Program-made: the position numbers and the translations under genes
Notes under the pieces: generated by a model
What the model saw: only the letters and a program-made list of their open reading frames with translations
Database searches by the model: none
What the model was told of the DNA's origin: nothing
NCBI GenBank assembly: GCA_963701085.1
Contig: OY969561.1
Span: forward strand, 896,001-960,000
Origin: an uncultured bacterium
GTDB lineage: Bacteria > Babelota > Babeliae > Babelales > Vermiphilaceae
Direction of reading: 5' to 3'
Length of the DNA stretch: 64,000 nt
Shown: piece by piece, positions 13,854-59,841 of the stretch
Layout: each line of letters opens with the position of its first letter
Numbering within the stretch: position 1 is the first letter of the stretch

Positions 13854-14067
13854 GAGTAAAACAGGAAAAATGTATTAATAGTATTCTGGATACCCTTATG
13901 AATCTAGGGTTTTAAATTCGATCGCCCTGTATATTGTTACAAAATTATTGCAATCTGAATAAATTATTTGCTATTTTTAAGATACCTAGAGACCTCTATG
14001 GTAAAAATAAGAGACATAGTGCATAGTGCAATATGCTCAACAATGTTCATGAAAAAGGAGAGTGATT

Positions 14068-14529
14068 ATGAAAAAGTACAATGTAAGTTTAGCGAGTTTA
14101 CTGTTGTTTTTTGCAACTGGTGCAGCAATTGCTATGCAAGGAAAAAGCCTTCAAGTGATGTTAGAAAATAGATCCACGCTTCCAATAAATGTGCTCATCA
14201 CCTATGATAGTGGTAAAGGTAAAGACATAATGTTTAAGCTCAAAGGCGGGGCATTAACTCCCATCAAGCAGGCGAACGACATTAAAAATATACAGGTAGA
14301 AGATTTTATGAGTGCCCTCAGTGGAGGACTTTCTAAATTTTCTAAGTATTCTGGTGAGCTATTTAAAATTATGGTTGGTTTTTATAGGAACAACTATTAT
14401 AAAATGAACGTACAAGCCACTGTAGTTGTTCAAGATGATTTAAGCATTAATATTGAGTGGGCTGATATGGACAATAATGGTGCACCAATGGCCAATGTTC
14501 TTACCGCCACCACTTTTAGAGAGCAATAA
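14068..14529 (+). CDS. Secreted hypothetical protein (leader shared with next gene)
   Basis: AAGGAG RBS; signal MKKYNVSLASLLLFFATGAAIA-M. Confidence 0.75.
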   Translation: MKKYNVSLASLLLFFATGAAIAMQGKSLQVMLENRSTLPINVLITYDSGKGKDIMFKLKGGALTPIKQANDIKNIQVEDFMSALSGGLSKFSKYSGELFKIMVGFYRNNYYKMNVQATVVVQDDLSINIEWADMDNNGAPMANVLTATTFREQ

Positions 14530-14747
14530 TCCTACATCAGATCTTTCCATGCCCCTTGAGGACTAGGCACGTTCAGCAAAGCATTTCCCGCCTATCCCCT
14601 ATATTTTATAAAATTATTGCAAAATTATTGCAATCTGAATAAATTACTTGCTAGTCTTAACATACCTAGAGGCCTCTATGGTAAAAATAAGAGACATAGT
14701 GCATGGTGCGCTACGCTCAACAATGTTCATGAAAAAGGAGAATGATT

Positions 14748-15221
14748 ATGAAAAAGTACAATGTAAGTTTAGCGGGTTTATTGTTGTTTTTTGCAACTGG
14801 TGCAGCTATCGGTATGGGAAACCAAAATCTTGAAGTTATTTTAAAGAATGATACCCAGCGTGATATAAAAGTAACTGTTGAGTATATAAATGAGGAAAAG
14901 GGATCATTTATACTGCAAGCAAATAAGCAGCAAACGATAGGTGCACAGGGGATGAAGGTTATGAGTATTATAGCTGAAGGTTCGGTGTCCCCTTATCCGA
15001 GTTCGCTATTTGATGCGATTAATACCTATTATAAAGCGAACTGCGCAAAACAACCTGTGAAAGCCATAATGAAAGTTATGGCAAAAAAAGAGGCTAATAA
15101 CGAGCTTGCTTTTATTGTTCACGAAATTGATTGGGTTGATCTAAATACGAAGAAAACAGTAATAACTTCTGTTACGCCTAAATTGGTACAGACTAAAATT
15201 TTTTCTATAACAAAAAAGTAA
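14748..15221 (+). CDS. Secreted hypothetical protein, divergent paralogue of 14068
   Basis: Near-identical upstream region and signal peptide. Confidence 0.75.
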   Translation: MKKYNVSLAGLLLFFATGAAIGMGNQNLEVILKNDTQRDIKVTVEYINEEKGSFILQANKQQTIGAQGMKVMSIIAEGSVSPYPSSLFDAINTYYKANCAKQPVKAIMKVMAKKEANNELAFIVHEIDWVDLNTKKTVITSVTPKLVQTKIFSITKK

Positions 15222-17298: not shown

Positions 17299-18267
17299 AT
17301 GAACAACAAAATAATCATCACCATTACGACTGTATCATTATACGTTTCATCACACACCATCTGCATGGAGCAAGAGTTAGAACAATATTTGAATGGATGC
17401 AAAATAATACGTACATATAATGAAAAAAAACTTCAACGGTACAAAAATGAGCTGATTGCCAAAGACACTGAAGCCCTTGAACAAGAAAAAATTATTATAA
17501 AAAACAAATTTGCACGCTATAAAACCAATTTATTACAACAAAAACAAACACTCCTTAATAAAATCAAAAAGCACCATACTATAGATAAACATCTTTGGCG
17601 AATGTGCATAAGTACCATCAAAAAAATAGATTGCTATAATAAGCAACTTCAACATACTCCTTTAGATCATGCGTATCATGGTAACGCAATTGATAAACAT
17701 ATACTCCAATTTATGACAGAAAGATTAAAAAATAACGGTATTAACCCACTCAGAGTCACCATACGGAATGAACACAACCATCTTGGACATGTATATCGTT
17801 CAAACATACAGATTCCTCATATCTACAAATCACCACGTTCGTCAGAAAACAGCGCTCCTATTGAACTTATCTTTAACTGGAATATTTTCTCACAACTTTC
17901 TGCATCTCATCAGATAGCAGTAACTGCCCGCTTGGTTGAAGATGCAGTGCAAAACTCTTCAATAATAACACCTGGTCTTATTGCAGAAATTGAACCATTA
18001 GCAACTAATGAAGAAAACTCTATTATAGATAGTCCAGAGTTTATTGCATTACAAAAAATATGCTCAGAAACATTACCAACTTTTTTACCATGTCTGATCA
18101 ATCCTATTATTGCATCATGCATGCTCGATCTTTTGTCTGAAAATTATCGTCAGGATTTTAGCCTGAAAGATTACAAACTTTTGAGCAAAATCAACAGACA
18201 TTGGAACATCCTGAGATGGATTGAACAACTTGAAAAAATTCCGTATACACTGCGCGCAATACTATAA
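17299..18267 (+). CDS. Secreted hypothetical protein
   Basis: 322-aa ORF, signal-like N-terminus ending TIC-ME. Confidence 0.65.
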   Translation: MNNKIIITITTVSLYVSSHTICMEQELEQYLNGCKIIRTYNEKKLQRYKNELIAKDTEALEQEKIIIKNKFARYKTNLLQQKQTLLNKIKKHHTIDKHLWRMCISTIKKIDCYNKQLQHTPLDHAYHGNAIDKHILQFMTERLKNNGINPLRVTIRNEHNHLGHVYRSNIQIPHIYKSPRSSENSAPIELIFNWNIFSQLSASHQIAVTARLVEDAVQNSSIITPGLIAEIEPLATNEENSIIDSPEFIALQKICSETLPTFLPCLINPIIASCMLDLLSENYRQDFSLKDYKLLSKINRHWNILRWIEQLEKIPYTLRAIL

Positions 18268-19995
18268 TAACTTTATCATCTCACGAGGAACATCAAGCCC
18301 CATATTTTTTAAAATAAATGGAGCAACCTGAGATAACTCTGCAACTGGCAAGGTACTATCAGAATCTTTGAGCCTGCCCTTCGAAGCCTCGGCGAAGTAG
18401 GGCCTGTTATTAATCATCATAAATGGCACTGGATTATTTGTATGCGCCGTTCGTGGTTGCCCCGTTACTTCATCGTACATTTCTTCCGCTTTTCCATGGT
18501 CAGCAGTTATATACAACGTACCGTCCATCTGCTGCACAATAACATCGTACAAATTTTTTAATTGCTCATCCAAACATTCCACCGCTTTTACCGTTGCATC
18601 AAAATCACCTGAATGTCCAACCATATCCGCATTGGCATAATTGATCAAATAAAAATCAGCTGCATCTTTTTTTAGGGAATTAATTACTGCCTCAGTAATT
18701 AATTCCGCAGACATTGCAGGATTATTGATATAATTTTGTGCTACAATTGAGGGGATCATGACGCGTGTTTCTGCCTTCACCGGCAATTCATTCTCTCCTC
18801 TAAAAAAATATGTCACATGCGCATATTTTTCTGTTTCGGCAATAGTGAAAAGAGTTTTTCCATGATGTGCTAAAACATCTTTCAATGTGTTATGCACAGG
18901 GTCTCTTGGAAATAACGCTGTTGTAGGAAGATGGACATCATACACAACCGGCGTCATAAAAAAGGTAAGATTGAGAGGTTTAACAATAAATCATTCGATA
19001 CATTTTTGAGGACAAAAACACTCAGGACGAGCGGAGGAAGAGGAATTATCTTTTCCGCTCGCCCTGAGTGCCACGCAGTGGTGTATCGAAGGGTCAAGAT
19101 GAGCGGAAGAATCTAAAAATGCTGCTGTCAATTCACGCGCGCGATCAGGACGTACATTACAAAAAAATATACCATCACCATTGTGAATAACACCATCAGG
19201 ATCTAATTGTGTTGGGGGAATAAATTCATCAGTAATATTGTGCGCGTAATTACGCTCAAGAACTTTTTCCCATATTTCATATGATTGCCTGTCCTCCGAC
19301 GTGTCCTCCGTAGCTTTAGCGTAGGAGGAAGCCTTGGCGAAGGAGGATTTTTCAGTTAGCACACGATAACTTTTTTCTATACGATCCCAATTATGATCAC
19401 GATCCATCGCATAAAAACGTCCGTGTATTGAGCCAATAAAAACATGGCATTTATTATTGTTTCCTTCATTATATGGCTTTATAAAATCCGCCAACCGCTT
19501 TAAATAATCATATGCTGATTGCGCCCCAACATCACGCCCATCTAAAAAGGGATGAATAACAATTTTTTTTATTCCCGCATCAACTGCCACTGCAATAGAA
19601 ACATGTATCGCTTTTTCATGCGCATGCACACCAGCATCAGAGAGCAACCCCATAATATGCAATGCACCACCAACTTCTTGCAGTTGCTTAAATTTTTCAA
19701 GCAACACGCGATTACAAGAAAAAGAATTATTCTTAATACTTTCCAACCATACCGTCATGGGCTGTTTAATAATACGTCCAGCACCAATAGTCAAATGACC
19801 TACTTCCGAATTACCAATCCAACCATCAGGCAATCCAACGGCTTTGCCGGCAGCTTGTATAACAGCATGTGGATAGTGCTGCCACCATTGATTAAAATGT
19901 GGCATACGTGCACATGCAATGGCATTATGTTTTTTAACTACTGAATAACCAAAACCATCAAGAATGACAAGTGCAACAGGATGAGTGCTTTTCAT
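18262..19995 (-). CDS. gpmI: 2,3-BPG-independent phosphoglycerate mutase with three palindrome insertions and one in-frame TGA (18991-18993)
   Basis: LVILDGFG, GNSEVGH, DGRD, AETEKYAHVT, ADMVGH, TADHG; both ORF halves are in the same frame. Confidence 0.92.
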
Positions 19996-20002
19996 ACCTA
20001 CT

Positions 20003-20695
20003 CTATTTCTTATCTTTTTTTTGACCCGTATCTTTTTTTGATTCTATCTCTTTGCTTAATTCTATCTCTTTCCCTGAAATACTTTGTTTAACAAAAAGAT
20101 TTAATAATTCATTATCATTCGGCAAAACCATCACCTTACTTAATTCTTGATAAACATCTTGTGCACCTTTGTTAGATTTTTCCTGCTCCTTAGTCACAAA
20201 AGCCAAAAATCTACTTAAATCAAATTCATTCAAAATCCGCCGATGATGTTGTATACAAAAGAGAGCCAAATTAAGAGCATCAGGATAATTATCAAGCGCA
20301 ACTAACACTCGCTGACAAATCGCATTCCTGCGAGTAATAGCATTACAATCTTCTAAAAATGTTGGGTATGAAACCTGTGTGCGTATAGATTTATTAACTC
20401 TTTCATACATTGCCTTACTTTTCTCTAACTCTTGCTGAGCTATTAGATCTAAAGGTGGCCAACCCAATATTCTAAAAGCTGCATAATCAGAACAGGTATT
20501 AATGACAGTGCTGCTTAATGAATCAAAACTATTTGATACACAACCATATAAATATGAAGAAAGCCCATTTTGTTCTGGTGAAGACTTACTAGGAATCGCT
20601 CTAGCAATCGCTACTTGCTGCTGCTCCATAGCTAATGCAGCAGTCGTAATTATTACCAACAACCCACTCAAATTTATTTTATTCCCGATGCTCAT
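20003..20695 (-). CDS. Secreted hypothetical protein
   Basis: Signal-like N-terminus ending ALA-ME; start placed at ATG 20695. Confidence 0.6.
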   Translation of the reverse strand: MSIGNKINLSGLLVIITTAALAMEQQQVAIARAIPSKSSPEQNGLSSYLYGCVSNSFDSLSSTVINTCSDYAAFRILGWPPLDLIAQQELEKSKAMYERVNKSIRTQVSYPTFLEDCNAITRRNAICQRVLVALDNYPDALNLALFCIQHHRRILNEFDLSRFLAFVTKEQEKSNKGAQDVYQELSKVMVLPNDNELLNLFVKQSISGKEIELSKEIESKKDTGQKKDKK

Positions 20696-20856
20696 ACGTT
20701 TCTCCAAAATTGTTATGTCGATGAAATTAATGTTGCACATAAATTAACAGAGAAGTGCAGCATTATTGAAAAAAAAGAGCAGAAAATACACAGCCCTTTT
20801 TTTAAAAAAAATAATAAACTATTTTTTAAATAATAACTTCTACTTTAAAGTTAACA

Positions 20857-21931
20857 TCAGCCCATCTTATAACAATTGCGCTCATTACGCATACGATCAT
20901 TGCGATTGCGCAATTTTTCTAGTTCTACTCGATTACACTTTTCCAGAATTCTATTCTGTTCACGCATCGCCCAAACTCGCTCACGCTCTGCACACGCTTG
21001 CGCTTCAAGAGCCTGCAATTGCAAACGTTGCAAGCGAGCCTGTTCCCATTCATACAATTCTCCTGATTACGAGGATCGTTCACGATGATGTTTATTTCAA
21101 CAACTTCGTGTAGTAAGTCATTAACATACTGTCTCTTTGCAGGATAATTATATGCTAGGGAACGAATATATTTAAGGTTAGCTATATCAGATTCAATCTT
21201 AATAACAAATGTACACAATGCATATTGCCCACCATCGTTATTTACAACGCACGTTTCAGTTCTGATGATACTGAATAACGATTAGATTCAAGAATAGTAA
21301 GTTCTTCAAAATATCTGTTGCGCAACTTATCTACCATATAGTACAAATTAGAATAGCTTCTGTGGTGCTCAAGGCAATCAGCAAAACATGTCACATCTGC
21401 CAAAAGATCATTAGCTGCCGATAACAACTGACGCATTCTCGCCAATCTGCACAGATCTTCATACTTACAATTTTTTCTTTCAAGGGCATTAATACGCTTA
21501 CGCAATCCCTGAACAGATGTTTTTAATTGATTCTTTGCCGCAATAACACCTGAACGATACGCATGCTGGGTAACATTGCTATTCCATACACAGGTAGCAA
21601 ATTCATGTAATACTGATTCAGAGATAACACTTGGTTGATACGCATGAGAAGTCATACCTGAAATAAGCCCAAAGTAGTCCATTGTACCTTTATACTGAGT
21701 ATGAATAGCACTATACTCACCATTAATACGCGTAATCATCTGATCATCAGTTTCTGAAAAACACCAGTCTGCTACCGCAACAGCTCCTGCAACACCAAGT
21801 ATTGCTGCTCCTACTGCACATGCTCCTGCTATAAAACCATCATTATTTCCCGCATTACTCATACTACTGCTGCAAGCAAGTGACACCGCCAAAAGACCTT
21901 CCATTGCTCTATTGTTTCGCTTTTTCATCAT
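20857..21931 (-). CDS. Hypothetical exported protein, frameshifted into three ORF pieces
   Basis: Near-contiguous minus-strand ORFs 21242-21931, 20925-21218, 20857-21057; signal plus hydrophobic segment. Confidence 0.5.
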
Positions 21932-22142
21932 AGTTCCCTTCATGTTACACGACGTTACACGATGATTTATACTTAATATCACTGTAACACAGATACTATG
22001 GGGTGTAAAAAGCCCTCTTTTTTGCAATGACAAATAGAAAAAAACATAGTTTTTGCTACGTTTAAAGTTTATCCCTAAATTCAAATAAAACCATCGGCAA
22101 GCAATATCACCCTCACCGCCTATTTTTTTATTTAAACATTAT

Positions 22143-22172
22143 TGACAAATTGAATCAGAATTAGATATTATT
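22143..22172 (+). promoter_or_regulatory. Sigma70-like promoter, repeated before most array genes
   Basis: TTGACA-N18-TATTAT (variants TATTGT/TAGTAT); copies near 22753, 25078, 25662, 26557 and on minus strand near 43250. Confidence 0.7.
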
Positions 22173-22218
22173 GTAAGTGATAATTGTATTAATGTTTTTC
22201 AAAAAAAAGGAGTTTCTC

Positions 22219-22563
22219 GTGAAAAACACAAAAAAATATCTTAGCACAGGCGTAGCCCTGGCGATCACACTGTTTGCAGCAGTTCAAACAATTGCAATGG
22301 AACGACCAGTAAATCCTTATCTGAGTGAACAAGCTAAACAATTGATAAAAAGCAGGATCGAGTTTTTCTCATCTGCAGCTGAAGACCAGTTTGATCCAAA
22401 ATCTCAGTATTTTGAAGACAATCCGTCTAAAAGAGCAGTTACAGCGGCAATAATTAATGCATATAAAGACATGTATTATGGAAATAAACCTTATACTGAC
22501 GATGAAATAGAAGAAACAATGTCAAATACACGCAGGGCTACACTAGCTAAATTCAACCAGTAA
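22219..22563 (+). CDS. Small secreted array protein, copy 1
   Basis: AAGGAG RBS, GTG start, leader KNTKKYLSTGVALAI..FAAVQ..AM, VNPYL, YYGNKPYT. Confidence 0.88.
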   Translation: MKNTKKYLSTGVALAITLFAAVQTIAMERPVNPYLSEQAKQLIKSRIEFFSSAAEDQFDPKSQYFEDNPSKRAVTAAIINAYKDMYYGNKPYTDDEIEETMSNTRRATLAKFNQ

Positions 22564-22830
22564 AAATTCTTAAAATAACACAAAAATAGCGCTTACTTAC
22601 TTTCAGTAGGCGCTCATTTTTATGCGCTCACTTCTGCCGCAGACAGGGCAATAATTATCTATTTTTTAAGAAAAATCAGCATATCCCTAAATTCCAATAA
22701 AACCATCGGCAAGCAATATCAGCCCACTCACCTATTTTTTATTTAAAGATTATTGACAAACTGAATCATAATTAGATATTATTATAAGTGATAGTTATAG
22801 TATTATTCTCAAAAAAAAGGAGTGTGTTTC

Positions 22831-23166
22831 ATGAAAAGCACAAAAAAATATCTTAGCACAGGCGTAGCCCTGGCAATTGCATTATTTGCAGCAGTTCAAG
22901 TATCTGCAATGGAACGTCGAACAGTAAATCCTTATTTGAGCCCAGGAATCAAAAAAATGGTAGAAGACCAGATCACAACTCGTCAACGATATCTTGATCC
23001 AAAGTATAAACGCTATAGTGAACTAAGTGAGCTACAAAAAAGGGATATTCAAGCACTGATTGAAGGATACGAAGAAGTGCTTTATGGAAATAAGGATTAT
23101 AGTTTTAATGAAGTCTATAATATTGCTAATGGACATTTAGAACGTGCAAAAAGAGAAAATCAATAA
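22831..23166 (+). CDS. Small secreted array protein, copy 2
   Basis: Same leader and anchor motifs. Confidence 0.88.
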   Translation: MKSTKKYLSTGVALAIALFAAVQVSAMERRTVNPYLSPGIKKMVEDQITTRQRYLDPKYKRYSELSELQKRDIQALIEGYEEVLYGNKDYSFNEVYNIANGHLERAKRENQ

Positions 23167-23248
23167 CCAAAAATAGCACACATGACGGGCGCCTACTCAC
23201 TTAGAGTGATAATTATATTAATGTTTTTCAAAAAAAAAGGAGTTTCTC

Positions 23249-23599
23249 ATGAAAAACACAAAAAAATATCTTAGTTTTAGCACAGGCGTAGCCCTGGCAA
23301 TCGCATTATTTGCAGCAGTTCAAGTATCTGCAATGGCCCCCCAAGTAAATCCTTATCTGAATTTACACACCAAAATAATGATAGAAGATGAGATCGAAAG
23401 GCTTCAAGAACTCCTTGATCCAAGGGGTCTACGTTCTAAGAGAATGGGTGGGATTAGTGAGCTAGATAAAAAGACATTCCAAGCAGAGATTAAAGGATGG
23501 GAAGAAGTGCTTTATGGAGATAATAATTATACTTGGCAGCAAATACAGGATATTATTCAGAGACATGTAGACCGTGCGACAAGAGAAGTGCGACAATAA
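23249..23599 (+). CDS. Small secreted array protein, copy 3
   Basis: Same leader (2-aa insertion) and anchor motifs. Confidence 0.88.
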   Translation: MKNTKKYLSFSTGVALAIALFAAVQVSAMAPQVNPYLNLHTKIMIEDEIERLQELLDPRGLRSKRMGGISELDKKTFQAEIKGWEEVLYGDNNYTWQQIQDIIQRHVDRATREVRQ

Positions 23600-23710
23600 A
23601 ATAGCACACATGACGGGCGCCTACTCGCTTAGTAGGCGCTCATTTTTATAAGCTCATTTCTGCCGCAAACATGGCAAAAAAGCCCTTTTATGGCAGGGCC
23701 TAGATATTGA

Positions 23711-24895
23711 TTAATTTTTTTCCAATTTTTTAATAAGATATCCCGCAGATTTCCATCCTAAAACAGTCGCCTGGGGCCAATTTTGATTTTCTATACCACC
23801 ATAAATAACATAATGTTCTTTTGTTGGTAATTGTGTCAATTCTTGCCATTGATCAAACGCTTTAAAAAAATCAGTTGCCACCGTTTTGCCAGCCTTAATT
23901 TCAACAGGGACGGGATACGTTTGATCAAGAATACAATCAATTTCATTACCAGTATGATCACGCCAAAAATAGATATTTGGCTGTTGTTCTAAATTAAATC
24001 GCTGCTTACGCAAATCAGAAATGATAAATGATTCTATCAAACCACCTCGCAAATAATGATTATCCAGATCTTGTTCTGATTTAATATTCAGCAATGAGCA
24101 AGCAAGACCAGTATCAACAAAATAAATTTTGGGCGATTTAATAAGACGTTTACCAAAGTTTTGATAGTAGGGATATAAAGAAAAAATAATATAACTTGCT
24201 TCTAGCACAGAAAGCCATGCTTTTACCGTGCTGTGATTAACACCACAATCATTACCAAGTGATTCTAAATTAACAACCTGACCAATGCGTCCTGCACAAA
24301 GACGAATAAAGCGTTGAAATGTTTCTAAATCAGTAATCTGCCGCATCTGACGAACATCACGTTCAACATAAGTAAGGATGTAGTTGCTATAAAGGCGCGA
24401 TGGAATACTATCTTCAGCATACACTTGCGGATAGGCGCCTTTCCAAACCGCTGTTTCAATTTTATCGGGTAATAAATTCGCAAAATCAAGTTCACTTACT
24501 GATAAAGGAAGTAAGGTCAAAATAGCAATCCTTCCCGCCAGTGTTTGACTAATAGCTTCATGCACCAAGATATTTTGGGAACCGGTAACCACAAAGAAAC
24601 CTTTTTTCTTTTCTCTATCAACAATAGTTTGCATGTAGGAAAGTAGCTGTGGAGCATTTTGAATTTCATCCAAAATAATCCCAGAACTGCTCGGATATTC
24701 AGCAAGAAACTTCCGGGGATCAGCAAGAGCAAGCTCTCTCAAATCAAAATCTTCCAAAGATATATATTTGTGATCAGGAAAGGCCATTTGAACGAGAGTT
24801 GTTTTGCCAGATTGCCGAGGACCTAGCACTGCAATTACCGGATATTCAGTCGCCGCATCGAGCATTTGAACTTCAATTTCACGCTTTATAAGCAT
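23711..24895 (-). CDS. AAA_14 ATPase with DUF4143 domain
   Basis: GPRQSGKTT, LDEIQ, TGS, LAGR, KSPKIYFVDTGL, EID...PVEIK. Confidence 0.93.
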   Translation of the reverse strand: MLIKREIEVQMLDAATEYPVIAVLGPRQSGKTTLVQMAFPDHKYISLEDFDLRELALADPRKFLAEYPSSSGIILDEIQNAPQLLSYMQTIVDREKKKGFFVVTGSQNILVHEAISQTLAGRIAILTLLPLSVSELDFANLLPDKIETAVWKGAYPQVYAEDSIPSRLYSNYILTYVERDVRQMRQITDLETFQRFIRLCAGRIGQVVNLESLGNDCGVNHSTVKAWLSVLEASYIIFSLYPYYQNFGKRLIKSPKIYFVDTGLACSLLNIKSEQDLDNHYLRGGLIESFIISDLRKQRFNLEQQPNIYFWRDHTGNEIDCILDQTYPVPVEIKAGKTVATDFFKAFDQWQELTQLPTKEHYVIYGGIENQNWPQATVLGWKSAGYLIKKLEKN

Positions 24896-25155
24896 CTTTC
24901 TTACCCCTTATAGAAAATTGCGAATTCAATTATCAATTTTCTTATTATTATAAGATACCGTGGTAAAAAGAGCAATAATTACCTATTTTTAAGAAAAATC
25001 AGCATATCCCTAAATTCCAATAAAGTGATCTGCAAGCAATATCACTTCCCCTTGCCTATTTTTTTATTTAAACATTATTGACAAATTGAATCACAATTAG
25101 ATATTGTTATAAGTGATAGTTATAGTATTATTCTCAAAAAAGAGGAGCATATTTC

Positions 25156-25488
25156 ATGAAAAACACAAAAAAATATCTTAGCACAGGCGTAGCCCTGGCA
25201 ATCGCATTATTTGCAGCAGTTCAAATATCTGCAATGGCCCCAAAAGTAAATCCTTATCTGAGTCCAGAACAAAAAACAGTGATAGAATCCAATATCAAAC
25301 ATCTACAAGATGAACTTAATCCAAAATCTAATTTTTTTAAGCAATATTTTGAGTCACAGAGAGCACTAGCACGAGCAATGATTAAAGGATTTGAAGAAGT
25401 ATACTACGGAAATCAACCTTATACTTATCAGCAAATTCAAGATACTGTTAGTGAATATCATGACCGTGCATTAGCTGCATTAAAATAG
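25156..25488 (+). CDS. Small secreted array protein, copy 4
   Basis: Same leader and anchor motifs. Confidence 0.88.
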   Translation: MKNTKKYLSTGVALAIALFAAVQISAMAPKVNPYLSPEQKTVIESNIKHLQDELNPKSNFFKQYFESQRALARAMIKGFEEVYYGNQPYTYQQIQDTVSEYHDRALAALK

Positions 25489-25739
25489 CACATATGACAA
25501 GCGCCTACTCGCTTGGTAGGCGCTCATTTTTATAAGCTCATTTCTGCCGCAAACGGGGCAATAATTACCTTTTTTTAAGAAAAATCAGCCTATTCCTAAA
25601 TTCCAATAAAACCATCGGCAAGCAATATCACCCTCACCGCCTATTTTTTATTTAAACATTATTGACAAATTGAATCATAATTAGATAGTATTGTAAGTGA
25701 TAATTATAGTATTATTCTCAAAAAAAAGAGGAGCGTGTT

Positions 25740-26087
25740 ATGAAAAGCACAAAAAAATATCTTAGCACAGGCGTAGCCCTGGCAATCGCGTTATTTGCAG
25801 CAGTTCAAACAATTGCAATGGAATCGGGTCGAAAAGTGAATCCTTATCTGAGCCCAGAAATTAAACAAAGGGCAGAACGTGCGATCAAATCTTATGAAAG
25901 GATGATTGATCCAAAGAATAAAGTTTATGATGAGCCATTCAAAAAAATGCTCAGACAAGAGCTTAAAGTATATGAAGATGTGCTTTATGGAAATAAATAT
26001 TATACTTGGCAGGAATACCATGATACTGTCCGGAGACATCAAGAACGTATAGGGGAAGAGAACCCTGCAATAAGGGAAAATCAATAA
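25740..26087 (+). CDS. Small secreted array protein, copy 5
   Basis: Same leader and anchor motifs. Confidence 0.88.
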   Translation: MKSTKKYLSTGVALAIALFAAVQTIAMESGRKVNPYLSPEIKQRAERAIKSYERMIDPKNKVYDEPFKKMLRQELKVYEDVLYGNKYYTWQEYHDTVRRHQERIGEENPAIRENQ

Positions 26088-26134
26088 ACAACGATAGCAC
26101 ATATGACGGGCACCTAATAAAAGGAATATTTTGT

Positions 26135-26476
26135 ATGAAAAGCACAAAAAAATATCTTAGCACAAGCGTAGTCCTGGCAATCGCGTTATTTGCAGCAATT
26201 CAAATAACTGCAATGGAACCGGGTCGAAAAGTAAATCCTCATCTGAGCAAAACACAGAAAGACATGCTAGAATACGAGATCCAAAAAGCTGAAGGATTTC
26301 TTGATCCAAAGTCCGAATCTGTTATGAGAGGATCTGGACTATTCATAAGCCAACAACAAGCAAAGGTTGAAGGACTTAAAGAAATATACTACGGAAATAA
26401 ACCTTATACTGACCAGCAAATTGAAGATACTCTTTGGAATCATAAGCGCCGTGCAATGCTACAGGGAAACTCTTAA
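26135..26476 (+). CDS. Small secreted array protein, copy 6
   Basis: Same leader and anchor motifs. Confidence 0.88.
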   Translation: MKSTKKYLSTSVVLAIALFAAIQITAMEPGRKVNPHLSKTQKDMLEYEIQKAEGFLDPKSESVMRGSGLFISQQQAKVEGLKEIYYGNKPYTDQQIEDTLWNHKRRAMLQGNS

Positions 26477-26635
26477 AAATCAGCATATCCCTAAATTCCA
26501 ATAAGACAATCTGCAAGAAATATCACGCTACCCCATGTTTTTTCATTTAAATATCATTGACAAATTGAATCATAATTAGATAGTATTGTAAGTGATAATT
26601 ATAGTATTATTCTCAAAAAAAGAGGAGCGTGTTTC

Positions 26636-26953
26636 ATGAAAAACACAAAAAAATATCTTAGCACAGGCGTAGCCCTGGCAATCGCATTATTTGCAGCAGT
26701 TCAATTAACTGCAATGGCCCCAAGAGTAAATCCTTATCTGAGCGAAAGAGCGAAGCAATCGATAAAAGACCGTATCGAATATATACAAGAACTGCTTAAT
26801 CCAAAGTCTAAAGCAGATGAGCGACTCAGAAACAGTTACAAAGCACATCTTAAAGGATATGAAGAAGTATACTACGGGAATCAACCTTATAGTCTAGATG
26901 AACTTGAGGATATTATTCAGAGATACAAAGCTAAAGAAGGCTATCAACAATAA
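26636..26953 (+). CDS. Small secreted array protein, copy 7
   Basis: Same leader and anchor motifs. Confidence 0.88.
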   Translation: MKNTKKYLSTGVALAIALFAAVQLTAMAPRVNPYLSERAKQSIKDRIEYIQELLNPKSKADERLRNSYKAHLKGYEEVYYGNQPYSLDELEDIIQRYKAKEGYQQ

Positions 26954-26969
26954 AATAGCACATATGACG

Positions 26970-27002
26970 GGCGCCTACTGACTATAGTAGGCGCTCATTT
27001 TT
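26970..27002 (+). terminator. Intrinsic terminator of array unit (copies at ~22588, 23617, 25501, 42775)
   Basis: GCGCCTACT-loop-AGTAGGCGC followed by T tract. Confidence 0.8.
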
Positions 27003-27015
27003 ATAGGATCACTTC

Positions 27016-27171
27016 TGCCGCATAAACGTTGGTATATCAAGATCTTTAGAATCTACTGCGCACTCCTCCTTCGCATAAAGCTTCGGAGGACACGGCCAAA
27101 CGTTAGAGGTATCTATTCTATTTTTGCCGCATAAACGTTGGTATATCAAGATCTTTAGAATCTACTGCGCA
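27016..27171. repeat. Exact 47-bp direct repeat of the ftsZ 3' end flanking a palindrome
   Basis: 27016-27062 is identical to 27125-27171. Confidence 0.95.
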
Positions 27172-28368
27172 ACCAAATGTATTATCAGCCTGTTCAAAAA
27201 AATCCGCATGACTCTTTTTCATAAAATCATGCGTTTCTTCTGCCACCGCCTCAACTTCTGTTTGCAATGGTAATGGCTGCACAACCGGTTCCTGCTCTTG
27301 TATCACTGTCGCTACCATACAAACATGCGCAACGTCTTCTTGGTGCTGGATAACAGGCGCTTCTTCTTTTGCTTCTTGTACCTGTTGCGCCACTGGACGT
27401 TCAAAATCAGTTGCAATAATTGTAACAATAACCTCATCTTTAAGATTATCATCAATGACTGAACCGATAATAATATTGGCATCTTCATGCGCTTGTTCAT
27501 ACACCACTGATGCAGCTTCACTAATTTCATGCAGCCCAAGATCTTTGCCACCGGTAATGTTACACAACACACCATGAGCACCAACGACCGACATGTTTTC
27601 TAGCAACGGTGATGATATTGCTTGCAATGCTGCTGCACGTGCACGGCCAACACCTGATGCTTTTCCGGTACCCATTACCGCAAGACCACGATCTTTCATA
27701 ATGGCGCGAATATCAGCATAATCAACATTAATATGCCCTGGTCGCGTGATAATATCAGAAAGTCCACGAACTGACTGACTCAAAACTCCTTCATTGATCA
27801 TTGCAAATGCATCAATCATAGAAACATGTTCATCAACAACCTCGAGTAATTTTTGATTTGGTACAATAATCAATGTATCAACATCTGTTTTAAGTTTTTC
27901 AATGGCTGCATCTGCTACTTGCGAGCGACGTTTACCTTCAAATAAAAATGGTCGTGTAACAATTGCTATGGATAAAATACCTTTTTCACGCAATGCACGT
28001 GCAATTACTGGTAATCCTCCAGAACCTGTTCCACCACCCATACCACCAACAATAAAAACTATGTCTGCTCCACTGATAGCATCCATAACTTTGTCTAAAT
28101 CTTCTTCAGCAGCACGTTTTCCAATTTCTGGATTCGCCCCCGCCCCTAACCCTTTTGTTGACTTAACACCAATCTGGATCTTATGCTGCGCCTTTGAGAA
28201 TTCCAATGCTTGTGCATCTGTGTTTGCAACAACAAACCCAATTCCCTGACATCCTGATTCTATGATGCTGTTAACAGCGTTTCCCCCTGCACCACCAACA
28301 CCAATTACCTTGATTGATACCATCGACTTTTGACGCTGTAATGCTTCTTGTTCAAAATCTATCATCAT
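27118..28368 (-). CDS. ftsZ: Cell division protein FtsZ
   Basis: GVGGAGGNAVN, GGGTGSG, C-terminal DLDIPTFMR. Confidence 0.98.
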   Translation of the reverse strand: MMIDFEQEALQRQKSMVSIKVIGVGGAGGNAVNSIIESGCQGIGFVVANTDAQALEFSKAQHKIQIGVKSTKGLGAGANPEIGKRAAEEDLDKVMDAISGADIVFIVGGMGGGTGSGGLPVIARALREKGILSIAIVTRPFLFEGKRRSQVADAAIEKLKTDVDTLIIVPNQKLLEVVDEHVSMIDAFAMINEGVLSQSVRGLSDIITRPGHINVDYADIRAIMKDRGLAVMGTGKASGVGRARAAALQAISSPLLENMSVVGAHGVLCNITGGKDLGLHEISEAASVVYEQAHEDANIIIGSVIDDNLKDEVIVTIIATDFERPVAQQVQEAKEEAPVIQHQEDVAHVCMVATVIQEQEPVVQPLPLQTEVEAVAEETHDFMKKSHADFFEQADNTFGCAVDSKDLDIPTFMRQK

Positions 28369-42816: not shown

Positions 42817-43173
42817 TTATTGATTTTCTCTTGCCTTTATACGTCTATTCTCTTCTTTTGCAAGATCCCAATATTTATCAATAGTCTCGTCTATTTCCTG
42901 ATAAGTATAAGGTTTATTCCCGTAATATACTTCTTCAAATCCTTTAAGTCTTGCACGTACTTTGTTTAAGTATTTCGTATCTGGAAAAAAATTTTGAGAC
43001 TTTGGATCAAGAACGTCAGAAGTCATTTTGATTTCACGTTGTATCCATCTTTTAGTTTCTTCATTCAAATAAGGATTTACTGTTCGACGTTCCATTGCAG
43101 TTATTTGAACTGCTGCAAATAATGTGATTACCAGGGCTACGCCTGTGCTAAGATATTTTTTTGTGTTTTTCAT
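42817..43173 (-). CDS. Small secreted array-family protein, dispersed copy 8
   Basis: Same leader, motifs, promoter and terminator as the 22-27 kb array. Confidence 0.88.
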   Translation of the reverse strand: MKNTKKYLSTGVALVITLFAAVQITAMERRTVNPYLNEETKRWIQREIKMTSDVLDPKSQNFFPDTKYLNKVRARLKGFEEVYYGNKPYTYQEIDETIDKYWDLAKEENRRIKARENQ

Positions 43174-43679: not shown

Positions 43680-46178
43680 ATGGAAAAAAGATACGACCAT
43701 CAATTATGTGAAGCGGCGGCGCAACAAAAATGGGAAACGGATAAAACCTATGCAATGGAAAACAATCCAGGACCATTATACAGCATAGATACCCCCCCTC
43801 CAACAGTTTCTGGGACACTGCACATTGGTCATATATTTTCTTATACACAAACCGATATCATTGCCCGCTACAAACGCATAAACGGTTACTCTGTTTTTTA
43901 TCCCTTTGGATTTGATGATAACGGCCTTCCAACAGAACGTTATGTGGAAAAAAAACGCAATGTTCGCGGGCATGAAATGTCCCGTTCAGAATTTATCAGC
44001 TCTATGCATCCAAGAATCTCATGAAGCCGCTGAAATATTTAAAAAATTATGGCAAAAAATGGGACTTTCTGCTGATTGGAGTGAGACATATTCAACCATA
44101 TCAGATGATTCCCGCAAAATATCGCAAGAATCATTCATTGAACTGTTTAATAAAAATTATATCTACCGCAAACAAGAACCAGCTTTATATTGCACAACCT
44201 GCCGCACATCCGTTGCACAAGCAGAACTTGATGATTTGCAAGACTTACCATCATTTTTCAACGGATATTATTTTTAAAGATAGTGATGGCAATGATCTGA
44301 TTATCGCAACAACACGCCCTGAACTACTTCCTGCATGCGTTGCAGTACTCTATAACCCTGATGATGTTCGTTACACACATTTACATGGTAAAAAAGCAAT
44401 TGTGCCTCTTTTTGGTCAAACTGTGCCTTTTATTACCTGATGATTTAGTTGCAATCGATAAAGGCAGCGGCCTTGTGATGGTGTGTACCTTTGGTGATAA
44501 AACAGACATCATTTGGTACAAAAAACACAACTTACCCTATCGCCATGTTATTGGTCTTCGATGGCAAATGCACTGATAATGCTGGTTTTTTACAAGGTCT
44601 TAAAGTTGCAGATGCACGTGTAAAGGTTATTGAAACATTACGTGAACAAAATCTTTTACCACGGCAACAACCAATTACGCATTCAGTTAACGTTCATGAA
44701 CGGTGCAAAAAAGAAATTGAATACACTATTTTGCCACAATGGTTTAGTCAGTATTTTACCATACAAAGACAAATTTTTAGAAATGGCTGACAGCATCAAT
44801 TGGTACCCAACATTTATGAAATCTCGCTACAATGATTGGGTAGAAAATTTAGCATGGGATTGGGGAATATCTCGCCAACGCTTTTATGGCATTCCATTCC
44901 CTGCATGGCACTGCCAAGATTGCGGCAAAATCTTACTTGCGCATCCTTAATCAACTGCCTGTTGATCCACAAGAAACACCGCATTCCGGCCCTTGCCCTG
45001 ATTGCGGTAAAAGCAATATCAAACCTGATACTGATGTTATGGATACATGGAATACATCATCATTAACGCCGTACATTTGTTATGACGTCTTTCAAAAAAT
45101 TAATAAAGTTCGTCTTACAAGTCCTTTCGAAGAAGACGCCCTGCGTAGCTGGGGCTCAAATGTCCATGCGCCCACAAGCACATGATATCATCCGCACCTG
45201 GGCATTCGATACCATCGTAAAATCATGGATGCACAACGGAATCGCTCCATGGAAAGATATTGTTATTTCTGGTCACGTGCTCGCTGATAGTAAAGAGAAA
45301 CTTTCAAAATCAAAAAGCAATGCGAGGCATGGATCCGGTGACTTATTACTCCAACAATATCCTGCCGATGCAATTAGATACTGGACAACTTCAGGAAGAC
45401 TTGGTCAAGACATGATGTTCTCAGAAGAACAACTTAAAATTGGCCAAAAATTAATCACCAAGATGTGGAATGTTTTTCTTTTTGCACAACCACACTTGGT
45501 AAATTTTGTAAAACACCGCATACTACACCTAATCAAATTGGCGCGATTAACAAATGGCTCTTGCACACGATCTCTGCATGCTTTGAAAAATATCAGCAAT
45601 ACCTTGAACAACATGAATTTGGTTTAGCGCTCAACATGATCGAACAATTTTTCTGGAGCAACTTCTGCGACAATTACCTTGAACTGATTAAAAATCAATT
45701 ATTTAATCCTGAACAATATAAAGCTGAATGGAAGTGGAAGCAACGCGTTGGACATTGTACCATGCAGGATTGCGCATACTGCAACTGTATTCACCATATT
45801 TGCCGCATATCACGGAAACAATCTATCATGAACTATATGCGCAACATGAAGCCCTACAATCTATTCATCAAACACGTTACCAGGATGTACAAACTCCGTA
45901 TGTATTTGCAGCTGAAGCAGAAATTATTAATGCCGTTATCGCAATTGCAACACAGGTACGTAAATTAAAATCAGAAAAACAACTATCACTCAAAACACCG
46001 CTGACCACCATGAATGTTTTTACTCAAACACAATCAGTGACAATCAACAATTGAACAACATGATCAGTTGATCCGTGGCATTACGCAGGCAGTGTCTGTT
46101 GTCGATGCAGCTCATAGTGGCCAAATTTCACGCTTCACCGAAAAAGATGGCGCATGGCATGCTGAGGTGGTGCTCTGA
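43680..46178 (+). CDS. valS: Valyl-tRNA synthetase (archaeal/Rickettsia-like type), multiple frameshifts
   Basis: [57 protein letters not shown]. Confidence 0.92.
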
Positions 46179-59717: not shown

Positions 59718-59841
59718 AAAACAGCTCATTACTAATAAAAATCCTCGGCTAAATACCGGGGATTTTTTATTTACCACATTATTTGTTATAGTGGTGCCAA
59801 CAAACCACATAACCAACAATAATCGAAAGTAATAAAATCGA

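What the first reader, a model, noticed from the sequence alone, without database searches (positions are those of the whole stretch)
22070..27002. Tandem cassette array of seven small secreted paralogues with constant leader and hypervariable body
Each unit is promoter + RBS + near-invariant leader of about 27-29 aa + ~80-90-aa body + hairpin terminator. Bodies keep only anchors (VNPYL, (D/N)PK, EEVxYGNxxY, I) between very divergent, probably helical segments, while non-coding DNA stays highly similar. I recognise no known family. Inference: a diversifying repertoire (effectors, binders, or immunity/decoy proteins) generated by amplification and segment exchange.
Basis: partly seen in the sequence, partly recalled or inferred. 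Interest (0 to 1): 0.85.

Follow-up and report, generated by a model that had tools for sequence, protein, structure and literature searches.

The report
Fast-evolving exported three-helix protein array
An uncultured parasite of protists (phylum Dependentiae) carries eight copies of a small exported three-helix protein whose export leader is kept almost identical while the body changes unusually fast, which marks an undescribed family of likely host-contact proteins.

Summary
Seven paralogous genes of 105-116 aa lie at 22219-26953 (+), and an eighth at 42817-43173 (-). An unrelated ATPase gene splits the array. Only 5 of the 7 array genes have a promoter of their own and only 4 have a full terminator.

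The genome is 1.2 Mb. Its FtsZ relatives are Dependentiae/Babeliales MAGs.

The leader reads as a Sec signal peptide. The body is predicted with high confidence (pLDDT 90) as a three-helix bundle. It matches no Pfam, NCBIfam, PADLOC or PDB family.

The family was found in one genus only, in 5 of its 11 genomes. It sits at a conserved spot between ftsZ and a neighbouring gene, with 0 to 7 copies there.

- Within this genome, synonymous divergence is 0.08 in the leader and 0.35-0.41 in the body.
- Body omega is 0.86. A site model with about a third of codons at omega near 8 fits far better (2dlnL 65-69).
- Recombination breaks at the leader/body joint in two genomes, in opposite senses.

Best reading: an exported binder or effector repertoire, diversified by duplication, positive selection and module exchange. 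Export, cleavage and target are inferred, not shown. It is a new variant of a known kind.

The parts
22142..22171 (+). promoter of c1 (TTGACA, 18 nt, TATTAT)
   Evidence: 11 of 12 consensus positions
22219..22563 (+). c1, 114 aa, GTG start; the most divergent copy
22588..22614 (+). hairpin terminator after c1, followed by an ftsZ-tail remnant (TCACTTCTGCCGCA)
22753..22782 (+). promoter of c2 (probably drives c2-c3)
22831..23166 (+). c2, 111 aa
23249..23599 (+). c3, 116 aa; no promoter of its own; 82-nt gap to c2 with a truncated hairpin
23615..23641 (+). hairpin terminator after c3, followed by an ftsZ-tail remnant
23711..24895 (-). AAA_14 + DUF4143 ATPase that interrupts the array. It is a multicopy gene that matches the PADLOC candidate defence family PDC-S01. 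It is not a member of the paralogue family.
25078..25107 (+). promoter of c4
25156..25488 (+). c4, 110 aa; the copy that was modelled
25500..25524 (+). hairpin terminator after c4, followed by an ftsZ-tail remnant
25662..25691 (+). promoter of c5 (probably drives c5-c6)
25740..26087 (+). c5, 115 aa; a mosaic whose 5' part is nearest c6 and whose 3' part is nearest c2/c3
   Evidence: (D8, D11)
26135..26476 (+). c6, 113 aa; 47-nt gap to c5, no promoter of its own, no terminator
26557..26586 (+). promoter of c7
26636..26953 (+). c7, 105 aa
26969..26996 (+). hairpin terminator after c7 (12 pairs)
27013..27062 (-). 50-nt duplicate of the ftsZ 3' end (49 of 50 nt identical). It still reads the last codons ...FMRQK plus a stop. 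It probably marks the old ftsZ/array junction.
   Evidence: (D13)
27063..27121 (.). 59-nt spacer holding a REP-like hairpin element, between the duplicate and the real ftsZ stop
   Evidence: 25 copies in the genome at up to 5 mismatches
42817..43173 (-). c8, 118 aa; a dispersed eighth copy with its own promoter (43250-43221) and terminator (42799-42772) and without the ftsZ remnant

Best explanation
**What it is.** A lineage-restricted repertoire of small exported proteins in an obligate parasite of protists.

**How it most likely works.**
1. Each gene or short operon is read from a near-consensus sigma-70-type promoter with a GGAG ribosome site.
2. The first 26-28 residues are a Sec signal peptide: a KxxKK n-region, a hydrophobic core of about 19 residues, and a c-region ending in A.
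3. Signal peptidase I most likely cuts between A and M. That releases a body of 78-92 residues that starts with Met.
4. The body folds into an antiparallel three-helix bundle. The invariant anchors are VNPYL at its start, DPK after helix 1 and YYGNxPY before helix 3.
5. It acts as a binding scaffold. A conserved face of each helix packs the core, and the other positions are the variable contact surface.
6. The most likely targets are host (protist) molecules. They would be met after passage of the outer membrane, through the secretin/T2SS-type machinery that the genome encodes or in vesicles.

**How the repertoire changes.**
- By unequal crossing-over of a unit that once abutted ftsZ.
- By positive selection on about a third of the body codons.
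- By recombination that treats 'promoter + leader' and 'body + terminator' as separate modules joined at the cleavage site.

**Shown:** gene anatomy, paralogy, predicted fold, restricted distribution, conserved locus, selection and recombination statistics.

**Inferred:** export, cleavage site, final location, binding and target.
For: **Anatomy.**

**Signal peptide.**
- The n-, h- and c-regions can be read in the alignment. There is no Cys and no twin Arg in the leader.
- Pro follows AMA in c3, c4 and c7. By the established -3/-1 rule and the +1-Pro ban of signal peptidase I, a cut after AMA is excluded and A|M fits.
- The genome encodes one S26 signal peptidase, two secretins and two T2SSE-type ATPases.
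- The same '[AGSC]-M-[ED]' end occurs in 93 of 504 crude signal-peptide-like ORFs of the genome. At a control position it occurs in 6 of 437.

**Fold.** AlphaFold2 on a 68-sequence alignment gave mean pLDDT 90.2 and pTM 0.73, with helices at 37-54, 66-83 and 91-109.

**Real, maintained genes.**
- All 8 frames are open.
- 98 representative clusters match at E <= 1e-3 in 1.84 billion proteins, almost all about 100 aa long.

**Restricted and dynamic.**
- Found in 5 of 11 genomes of one genus, and in 0 of 69 genomes of 45 other genera of the same family.
- The locus ftsA-ftsZ-[array]-orf280-sp245-gpmI is conserved. It holds 0 (L021, L061), 4 (G007), at least 3 (G002) or 7 copies. In other genomes it holds other secreted genes.

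**Selection.**
- Nei-Gojobori body pS 0.41 and pN 0.41.
- ML M0 omega 0.86. My code and IQ-TREE both give lnL -2012.54.
- M1a lnL -1944.35 against M2a -1909.94, with 34% of sites at omega 7.9.
- The result holds on 77 ungapped codons (2dlnL 64.9), and in each half with its own tree (30.3 and 24.1).
- Selected sites cluster on one helical face in helix 2 (p 0.02) and helix 3 (p 0.045). In helices 1 and 2 they lie roughly opposite the constrained residues.
- Body dN/dS is also 0.5-1.3 in the copies of relatives G007 and G002.

**Module exchange.**
- In this genome, leader pS is 0.077-0.085 and body pS is 0.35-0.41.
- In G007 the leaders have pS 0.38.
- The G007 copies g7a and g7c have bodies identical at 206 of 210 nt and leaders identical at only 67 of 81 nt. 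The break is at the joint.
- The body tree puts c3 with an outside protein (support 99/93) and c2 next to them (96/92). The bodies therefore predate this genome's uniform leaders.

**Amplification.** An ftsZ-tail remnant follows the terminators of c1, c3, c4 and c7.

**Background.** In a cultured Dependentiae, 44% of genes carry signal peptides, enriched in ORFans (PMC6561590; passages read).
Against: - No experiment or expression data.
- No signal-peptide predictor was run. The hydrophobic core is long (about 19-20 residues) and carries a conserved AxxxAxxxA/S pattern, so an uncleaved membrane anchor is possible.
- The leader is better conserved across species than a plain Sec signal needs to be.
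- The omega estimates rest on 8 sequences with a tree length of 8.8 substitutions per codon. They come from my own implementation of the site models.
- Recombination, which is present here, is known to inflate such tests. Splitting the alignment only partly controls for that.
- Helix 1 shows no significant one-sided clustering (p 0.18).
- The one clear cross-species ortholog pair with DNA (g7b-g2b) has dN/dS 0.53, which is below 1.
- The host and the export route are unknown.
- Nothing links the family to any host-like domain. Proteins of relatives that carry the same leader on other bodies gave no F-box hit in Pfam, and only sub-threshold RING hits (E 0.005-0.03).
Confidence: 0.5

Rival explanations
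1. The proteins are bitopic envelope proteins. The 'leader' is not cut off. It stays as an N-terminal membrane helix that packs against a partner helix, and the three-helix bundle works in the periplasm on the parasite's own envelope or on transport.
For: - The hydrophobic stretch is about 19-20 residues long and is modelled as one helix, 5-25.
- The small-xxx-small pattern A13/A17/A21(S) and Q23 are nearly invariant in 68 family members, although the bodies are only 24-57% identical to c4.
- Leader dN/dS is 0.12-0.4 in relatives, with normal synonymous divergence. That means real protein-level constraint on the leader.
Against: - The c-region fits the signal peptidase I rule in all 8 copies (A at -1; I, V, T or L at -3).
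- The same end motif closes about 90 other signal-peptide-like N-termini in the genome.
- Omega near 8 on a third of the body sites is hard to reconcile with a housekeeping envelope role.
- The family was not found in 6 of the 11 genomes of the genus.
Confidence: 0.2
2. The proteins are a periplasmic inhibitor or immunity repertoire. The small bundles stay in the periplasm and neutralise incoming hostile proteins, such as host lysozymes, proteases or pore formers of the food vacuole, or toxins of competitors. Each paralogue would be tuned to a different attacker.
For: - Small Sec-exported proteins in tandem, diversified, with variable copy number.
- A positive-selection signature typical of arms races.
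- The organism's relatives enter their hosts by phagocytosis (PMC6561590, passages).
- Tandem arrays of small periplasmic immunity genes are a known design. This is recalled, not tested.
Against: - No match to any PADLOC model or to any Pfam or NCBIfam family, which include the known inhibitor and immunity families.
- No toxin or effector gene sits next to the array.
- The fold search gave only generic helical matches.
Confidence: 0.15
3. There is no adaptive diversification. This would be an old, decaying paralogue family under relaxed constraint, in a genome that is losing genes. Homogenising gene conversion happens to keep the 5' ends alike.
For: - Overall body omega is 0.86, close to 1.
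- Several neighbouring genes are split over frames.
- Gene conversion of the 5' part is needed in any case to explain leader pS 0.08 against body pS 0.35-0.41.
- Recombination can create false positives in site tests.
Against: - All 8 copies keep open frames, strong promoters and ribosome sites.
- A quarter of the sites are under clear constraint (omega 0.19), and M1a, the nearly neutral model, is rejected.
- The family persists in about 98 sequence clusters, with a confidently predicted fold.
- Ortholog-like pairs across organisms are recognisable.
Confidence: 0.1

Closest known systems
Venom and antimicrobial-peptide gene superfamilies of animals (conopeptides, mussel peptides)
   Same: The signal sequence is conserved even at silent sites, next to a hypervariable mature part, in multi-copy families with variable gene content. 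The conopeptide case is recalled. For mussels I saw only the search listing and abstract of PMC10138031.
   Different: Those are eukaryotic, Cys-framework peptides with introns and propeptides. Here the genes are bacterial and have no Cys framework, and the body is a three-helix bundle. The silent-site conservation of the leader is specific to this one genome and is explained by gene conversion.
Oomycete RXLR effectors with helical WY domains
   Same: It works alike on paper: a conserved N-terminal address module followed by a fast-evolving small helical bundle, in expanded, clustered families of a parasite of eukaryotes. This is recalled. I saw only the search listing and the start of the abstract of PMC3820680.
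   Different: There is no RXLR or dEER motif after the signal peptide (alignment). There is no sequence or fold match. The organism is a bacterium, and nothing shows entry into the host.
Mycoplasma hyorhinis Vlp-type variable surface lipoprotein clusters
   Same: Tandem genes share a highly conserved promoter-plus-signal-peptide block and have divergent mature parts (recalled).
   Different: There is no lipobox Cys. There are no internal tandem repeats in the body. The A-tracts lie after the -10 box (A6-A9 before the ribosome site) and in codons 4-6 (A7), not in the promoter spacer. Phase switching was not tested.
Small three-helix-bundle binders of Gram-positive cocci (staphylococcal complement inhibitor SCIN, protein A / GA-type modules)
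   Same: A secreted bundle of about 80 residues that binds through exposed helix faces. SCIN chains appear among the weak Foldseek rows (2qff, 2win; E about 2).
   Different: The matches are not significant. No Foldseek match reached E <= 0.001. The best VIA Z is 7.4, to an F-BAR domain, which is below the level that helical models reach by chance. There is no sequence relation.
The large predicted secretome of Dependentiae (Chromulinavorax destructans)
   Same: The same phylum and lifestyle. There, 44% of genes carry signal peptides, enriched in proteins without known relatives and regarded as host-manipulation candidates (PMC6561590, passages read).
   Different: The passages that my term search of that paper returned describe no such family or leader/body design. 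The term 'tandem' and words starting with 'paralog' do not occur in its main text.

Membership tests
Sec-type (signal peptidase I) signal peptide | Basic n-region, hydrophobic h-region, and a c-region with small residues at -1 and -3 and no Pro at +1 | tested here: met
   Read in the alignments. The leader reads MKNTKK, then LSTGVALAIALFAAVQ, then xxA|M. A is at -1 and I, V, T or L at -3 in all 8 copies. M is at +1. No predictor such as SignalP was run.
Sec-type (signal peptidase I) signal peptide | The processing enzyme is present in the genome | tested here: met
   Peptidase_S26 matches in one 340-aa frame, E 7e-22.
Bacterial lipoprotein (signal peptidase II) | Lipobox with an invariant Cys at +1 | tested here: not met
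   No Cys anywhere in the 8 leaders or at the joint.
Tat signal peptide | Twin-arginine motif in the n-region | tested here: not met
   The n-region is MK(N/S)TKK, without Arg.
Diversity-generating retroelement target genes | A reverse transcriptase gene in the genome | tested here: not met
   No RVT_1 match in the 92.6%-complete single-contig genome. The control genomes did give matches.
Diversity-generating retroelement target genes | A template repeat with adenine-specific differences to a variable repeat | not tested
   No such repeat pair stood out. The mutation spectrum was not analysed.
Vlp-type phase-variable lipoprotein cluster | A homopolymer tract in the promoter spacer, and a lipoprotein signal | tested here: not met
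   The spacers hold no homopolymer tract. The A-tracts lie downstream of the -10 box and in codons 4-6. There is no lipobox.
RXLR-type host-translocated effectors | An RXLR(-dEER) motif within about 40 residues after the signal peptide | tested here: not met
   The signal is followed by (E/A)(R/P)x(x)VNPYL(S/N). No RxLR occurs in any of the 8 copies.
Any curated protein family (Pfam-A, NCBIfam, PADLOC) or solved structure by sequence | A score above the family's cut-off | tested here: not met
   - Pfam: the best hits are at E 0.01-0.25, all below their cut-offs.
- NCBIfam: 0 families for the 3 copies tested.
- PADLOC: 0 for c4.
- PDB profile search: best E 0.034.
Known three-helix-bundle folds (protein A/GA, SCIN, spectrin-like and others) | A structural match clearly above background | tested here: inconclusive
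   Foldseek against the PDB gave 0 matches with E <= 0.001. VIA-align against 48,161 chains gave a best Z of 7.4. The tool's note puts the chance level for helical models at up to about 13.
AAA_14/DUF4143 ATPase (PADLOC candidate system PDC-S01), for the interrupting gene only | Both domains above cut-off | tested here: met
   DUF4143 E 7e-50 and AAA_14 E 5e-27. PDC-S01 E 8e-99.

The most novel reading that the evidence does not exclude
The array is a natural, genome-encoded library of three-helix-bundle binders. A protist parasite would keep retuning it against host targets. The unusually conserved leader, with its Met-Glu/Met-Ala junction, would be more than a Sec signal. It would be a portable address and processing module for a Dependentiae-specific delivery route, attached by recombination at a fixed joint to new bodies. 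The same '[small]-Met-acidic' junction on about 90 other exported proteins would then mark the organism's whole host-directed secretome. It would leave each delivered protein with a Met N-terminus like that of a native cytosolic protein.
Probability: 0.2. Interest if true: 0.8.

Novelty: new variant of a known kind. Interest (0 to 1): 0.6.

Why it matters
Dependentiae are widespread parasites of protists, and almost all are uncultured. Their tools for handling the host are unknown beyond lists of ankyrin-repeat and other eukaryote-like proteins.

This family gives a concrete, compact set of candidates. The proteins are short, confidently foldable and strongly expressed on paper, and their evolutionary signature is that of molecules in conflict with a partner.

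The family is also a clear bacterial example of two modules with separate histories. Promoter plus leader, and body plus terminator, are joined at the cleavage site, and the joint is visible in two genomes in opposite senses. That is useful for understanding how secreted repertoires are rebuilt in very small genomes.

If the junction motif marks the delivered secretome, it would allow effectors to be listed in this lineage directly from sequence.

Tried and rejected
- **Diversity-generating retroelement:** no reverse transcriptase in the genome.
- **RNA element in the 5' UTR plus leader, to explain the conserved silent sites:**
  - Single-sequence fold z-score -0.61; 50 of 200 shuffles fold as well.
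  - The consensus fold has 2 of 22 pairs with compensatory change.
  - Not supported.
- **Family and fold look-ups that gave nothing specific:** Pfam, NCBIfam, PADLOC, PDB by sequence, ESM Atlas (best 0.76, below the level of a lead), Foldseek PDB and VIA-align wide.
- **First scan of genome contigs with the family profile:** 199 pattern matches, none confirmed.
- **Long Gram-positive-type repeat proteins P0087, P0088 and P0097:** they match the body at E about 5e-6 to 2e-5 in several stretches. I read these as helical-repeat resemblance and did not follow them up.
- **Idea that the same leader sits on host-like domains in relatives:**
  - Pfam gives no F-box for P0092.
  - It gives only sub-threshold zinc-finger and RING hits (E 0.005 and 0.03) for a 301-aa G009 protein.
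  - Two other 'different bodies' (L020 8402-8743 and the G002 copy next to the ATPase) look like very diverged family members.
  - The idea is not used as evidence.
- **Sequencing runs:**
  - No RNA holder is listed.
  - Four DNA runs, of which two hold 18% and 5% of the sampled words.
  - Laid as low-depth contigs they cover only scattered pieces.
  - Most of the array is without cover, so nothing can be said on strain-level content or expression.
  - One contig of a relative joins the ATPase side to a c4-like leader. Another skips 26408 to 26941. Both are single contigs at depth about 3.
- **Earlier notes of this scan:** none on this genome, and none relevant by sequence or words.
- **Literature:** five full-text searches gave no paper that describes this family. 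Supplements are closed, so gene lists in the supplements of Dependentiae genome papers could not be checked.
- **Complex prediction:** not used, because the report claims no specific protein pair.

Full report
**1. What is there**

The region 22070-27002 holds seven ORFs of 105-116 aa on the plus strand:
- c1 22219-22563
- c2 22831-23166
- c3 23249-23599
- c4 25156-25488
- c5 25740-26087
- c6 26135-26476
- c7 26636-26953

A profile of the seven finds exactly eight places in the window's genome, at E 1.5e-43 to 4.8e-54. The genome is one contig of 1,198,634 bp with 37% G+C. The eighth copy, c8, is window 42817-43173 on the minus strand.

The seven are 40-52% identical to c1. Of their 30 invariant columns, 20 lie in the first 27 residues. 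The other 10 are the anchors V-N-P-x-L, K, I, P (of DPK) and Y-G-x-x-x-Y.

c1 starts with GTG, 8 nt after AAGGAG.

The array is not uniform.
- A minus-strand gene for an AAA_14 + DUF4143 ATPase (23711-24895) splits it.
- The consensus scan finds five strong promoters, before c1, c2, c4, c5 and c7. It finds four full terminators, after c1, c3, c4 and c7.
- The c2-c3 and c5-c6 gaps are 82 and 47 nt, with a truncated hairpin and no promoter. No terminator lies between c6 and c7.
- The likely transcription units are therefore c1, c2-c3, c4, c5-c6(-c7), c7 and c8.

**2. Whose genome**

FtsZ of the window (27118-28368, minus strand) has relatives in 50 loci of public genomes. The closer ones (54-82% identity) mostly bear titles such as Candidatus Dependentiae, Candidatus Babeliales or candidate division TM6. 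Some are labelled only 'uncultured bacterium' or 'uncultured Pseudomonadota'. Genomes of the same family and order have 0.8-2.4 Mb.

Cultured members of this phylum are obligate intracellular parasites of protists. In Chromulinavorax destructans, 44% of genes carry signal peptides, enriched in proteins without relatives (PMC6561590, passages read).

**3. The protein**

The leader reads MK(N/S)TKKYLSTGVALAIALFAAVQxxA|M. It has a basic n-region, a hydrophobic core, A at -1 and I, V, T or L at -3. It has no Cys and no twin Arg.

In c3, c4 and c7, AMA is followed by Pro. By the known rules of signal peptidase I, a cut after AMA is excluded, and a cut between A and M fits all eight copies. This is an inference. 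No predictor was run.

The genome encodes one S26 signal peptidase, two secretins and two T2SSE-type ATPases. No VirB4 was found.

The junction is typical of the lineage. '[AGSC]-M-[ED]' occurs at residues 15-40 in 93 of 504 crude signal-peptide-like ORFs, against 6 of 437 at residues 101-126.

AlphaFold2 was run on a 68-sequence alignment of the family.
- Mean pLDDT is 90.2 and pTM is 0.73.
- The leader is a helix (5-25).
- An extended VNPYL segment follows.
- Three long helices follow (37-54, 66-83, 91-109), with a short one at 59-63. The 10-residue blocks from residue 31 on have mean pLDDT 93-98.
- This is a three-helix bundle.

The look-ups gave no known relative.
- Foldseek found no PDB match with E <= 0.001.
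- VIA-align against 48,161 chains gave a best Z of 7.4, to an F-BAR domain. That is below what helical models reach by chance.
- Pfam, NCBIfam, PADLOC, a PDB sequence profile and the ESM Atlas gave nothing usable.

**4. Distribution**

- In 5.8 billion clustered proteins, c4 finds 19 proteins. Eight are the window's own, and all the named ones are 'hypothetical'.
- The full HMMER scan of 1.84 billion representatives finds 98 proteins at E <= 1e-3 and 62 at E <= 1e-10. Nearly all are about 100 aa long. A few carry two domains in one chain, for example P0108.
- Among species genomes, matches occur in 5 of 11 genomes of one genus (8, 8, 5, 3 and 3 matches). They occur in 0 of 69 genomes of 45 other genera of the same family. 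A looser search gave 6 of 41 genomes.
- The family is therefore narrow in range but very diverse in sequence.

**5. The locus**

The order ftsA-ftsZ-[array]-orf280-sp245-gpmI is conserved in the genus. What lies between ftsZ and orf280 differs.
- L021 and L061: nothing.
- L022: one unrelated 334-aa ORF.
- G005: an ankyrin + Prok-RING_1 secreted protein, a Nif11-domain protein, and one very diverged leader-bearing gene.
- G007: four family genes.
- G002: at least three family genes on the ftsZ side, before a contig end.
- G002 also has a second contig, in which orf280 is followed by one copy and by a 93%-identical ATPase in the same relative place as here.

The named loci L018, L020 and L023 give the same ORF hits as loci of G002, G005 and G007. 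They are not counted twice.

Between this genome and G002, only the promoter plus leader aligns at the DNA level, at 70-81%.

**6. How the array grew**

Behind the terminators of c1, c3, c4 and c7 lies TCA(C/T)TTCTGCCGCA....

After c7 this continues for 50 nt as a 49/50 copy of the ftsZ 3' end. The copy still reads ...FMRQK plus a stop. In G007 the last terminator abuts the real ftsZ stop in the same way.

The repeated unit therefore once included the tail of ftsZ. This points to unequal crossing-over of a unit at that junction.

Between the duplicate and the real ftsZ stop lies a 59-nt piece holding a hairpin element. That element has 25 copies in the genome at up to 5 mismatches.

c8 has its own promoter and terminator but no ftsZ remnant.

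**7. Leader against body**

Nei-Gojobori means over 28 pairs:

| Part | pS | pN |
|---|---|---|
| Leader | 0.075 | 0.067 |
| Body | 0.410 | 0.408 |

- Counting only codon pairs that encode the same residue, leader pS is 35/453 = 0.077 and body pS is 185/534 = 0.346. After VNPYLS it is 0.380.
- Upstream non-coding DNA differs by about 18%.
- The body columns with conserved residues have lower pS (0.26) than the variable ones (0.43).

The low leader value is special to this genome. Among four G007 copies leader pS is 0.38, and between the two genomes it is 0.30. In relatives, leader dN/dS is 0.12-0.6. So the leader is conserved as a protein everywhere, and in this genome it has in addition been homogenised as DNA.

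The mature-domain tree shows that the bodies are older than that homogenisation. c3 pairs with an outside protein (99/93), and c2 joins them (96/92). c1 falls with four outside proteins (93/81). The eight copies need 5 changes on the tree, at least 2 of them by well-supported branches. That tree has many unresolved forks and long branches.

G007 shows the mirror image. g7a and g7c have bodies identical at 206 of 210 nt and about 40 identical nt beyond the stop. Their leaders are identical at only 67 of 81 nt, and the break is right at the joint.

So 'promoter + leader' and 'body + terminator' recombine as separate modules.

Inside the body the evidence for exchange is weaker.
- The nearest neighbour changes along the gene.
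- PHI p is 0.042 for the whole gene and 0.029 for the body with a short window, but 0.36 with a 100-nt window.
- The two halves give different trees.

**8. Selection**

| Data set | Result |
|---|---|
| Body, 85 codons, M0 (IQ-TREE and my code) | omega 0.86, kappa 1.6, lnL -2012.54, tree length 8.8 |
| Body, M1a | lnL -1944.35 |
| Body, M2a | lnL -1909.94; 25% of sites at omega 0.19, 41% at 1, 34% at 7.9; 2dlnL 68.8 |
| 77 ungapped codons | 2dlnL 64.9 |
| Columns 1-33, own tree | 2dlnL 30.3 |
| Columns 47-82, own tree | 2dlnL 24.1 |

Sites with posterior above 0.8 cluster on one helical face in helix 2 (resultant 0.81, p 0.02) and helix 3 (0.61, p 0.045), but not clearly in helix 1 (0.36, p 0.18). 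In helices 1 and 2 they lie 138-166 degrees from the constrained residues.

Caveats:
- only eight sequences
- long branches
- recombination is present
- the site-model code is my own
- exposure was judged by periodicity only

In relatives, pairwise body dN/dS is 0.5-1.3. The one clear cross-species ortholog pair gives 0.53.

**9. How special is this within the genome**

Twenty paralogous families with three or more signal-peptide-like members were listed, and most have adjacent members. In most of them the first 25 residues are no more alike than the rest. Only this family (0.86 against 0.40) and one other show a constant leader with a divergent body. The other is MKKYNVxLAxLLLFFATGAAIxM, at 0.88 against 0.24, with two members at window 14062-15221.

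In this genome the leader of the family occurs on these eight genes only.

**10. Reading**

The best reading is an exported repertoire of three-helix binders directed at host molecules. It is enlarged by unit duplication, retuned by positive selection, and reshuffled at the leader/body joint.

The rivals are:
- a membrane-anchored envelope protein, because the leader is long and unusually conserved
- a periplasmic inhibitor or immunity set
- neutral decay with gene conversion

Export, cleavage, location and target are not shown.

Five full-text searches found no description of the family. Supplements could not be seen.

The design is known from other systems: venom and antimicrobial peptide families, RXLR effectors and Vlp clusters (largely recalled). 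The finding is therefore a new variant of a known kind, in a phylum whose host-interaction proteins are essentially uncharted.

Noticed in passing
whole genome; in the window e.g. 3350-4318, 4463-4867, 17299-18267, 20003-20740, 58836-60915: Signal-peptide-like N-termini very often end in small residue-Met-Glu/Asp ('[AGSC]-M-[ED]'). This occurs in 93 of 504 crude candidates at residues 15-40, against 6 of 437 at a control position. If the cut is before Met, about 90 exported proteins would start with Met-Glu or Met-Asp. I found no description of this in the papers searched.
   Followed up: partly
window 14062-14529 and 14742-15221 (also genome 351700 and 827190): A second small family has the same design. 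The leader MKKYNVxLAxLLLFFATGAAIxM is nearly constant (identity 0.88), and the bodies of about 130 aa are only 24% identical. No NCBIfam match for one member.
   Followed up: partly
window 27013-27171: The last 50 nt of ftsZ are present twice, 109 nt apart and 49/50 identical. The outer copy still reads ...FMRQK plus a stop. A 59-nt piece lies between them, holding a hairpin element that has 25 copies in the genome at up to 5 mismatches. This looks like an insertion of a REP- or MITE-like element with an unusually long duplication.
   Followed up: partly
window 20857-22084; 18262-19995; 43680-46054; 48630-49239; 56046-57562: Several genes are split over two or three frames. They are the orf280 homologue, a phosphoglycerate mutase, valS, ruvA-like and gatB-like genes. 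Homologues in relatives are whole. The cause is either indel errors of the assembly or real gene decay. All eight family genes are intact.
   Followed up: no
window 23711-24895 (-): The ATPase inside the array (AAA_14 + DUF4143, PADLOC candidate defence family PDC-S01) belongs to a multicopy family. Eight of the 10 other genomes of the genus have 2-11 matches each, and this genome has 4. A 93%-identical copy sits at the same place of the array in G002.
   Followed up: partly
L020 6322-8743 (relative G005, same spot between ftsZ and orf280): In this relative the spot holds three genes. One is a secreted ankyrin-repeat protein with a Prok-RING_1 finger (30.4 bits, cut-off 29.1). One is a protein with two Nif11 domains. 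One is a 113-aa gene with the family's leader and a very diverged body. The spot seems to be a general landing place for accessory exported genes.
   Followed up: partly
L012 847-1752 and L017 316-2733 (relative G009): A leader like that of the family is fused to quite different, longer bodies. These are a Gln/Pro-rich 42-aa-repeat protein and coiled-coil proteins ending in a Cys-rich RING-like motif, which is only sub-threshold in Pfam.
   Followed up: partly
window, all eight copies: 5' UTR and codons 4-6: Conserved A-tracts lie between the -10 box and the ribosome site (A6-A9) and in the coding start (ACAAAAAAATAT, A7). Slipped-strand on/off switching is conceivable. It could not be tested, because no reads were available and homopolymer lengths in this assembly may be unreliable.
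   Followed up: no
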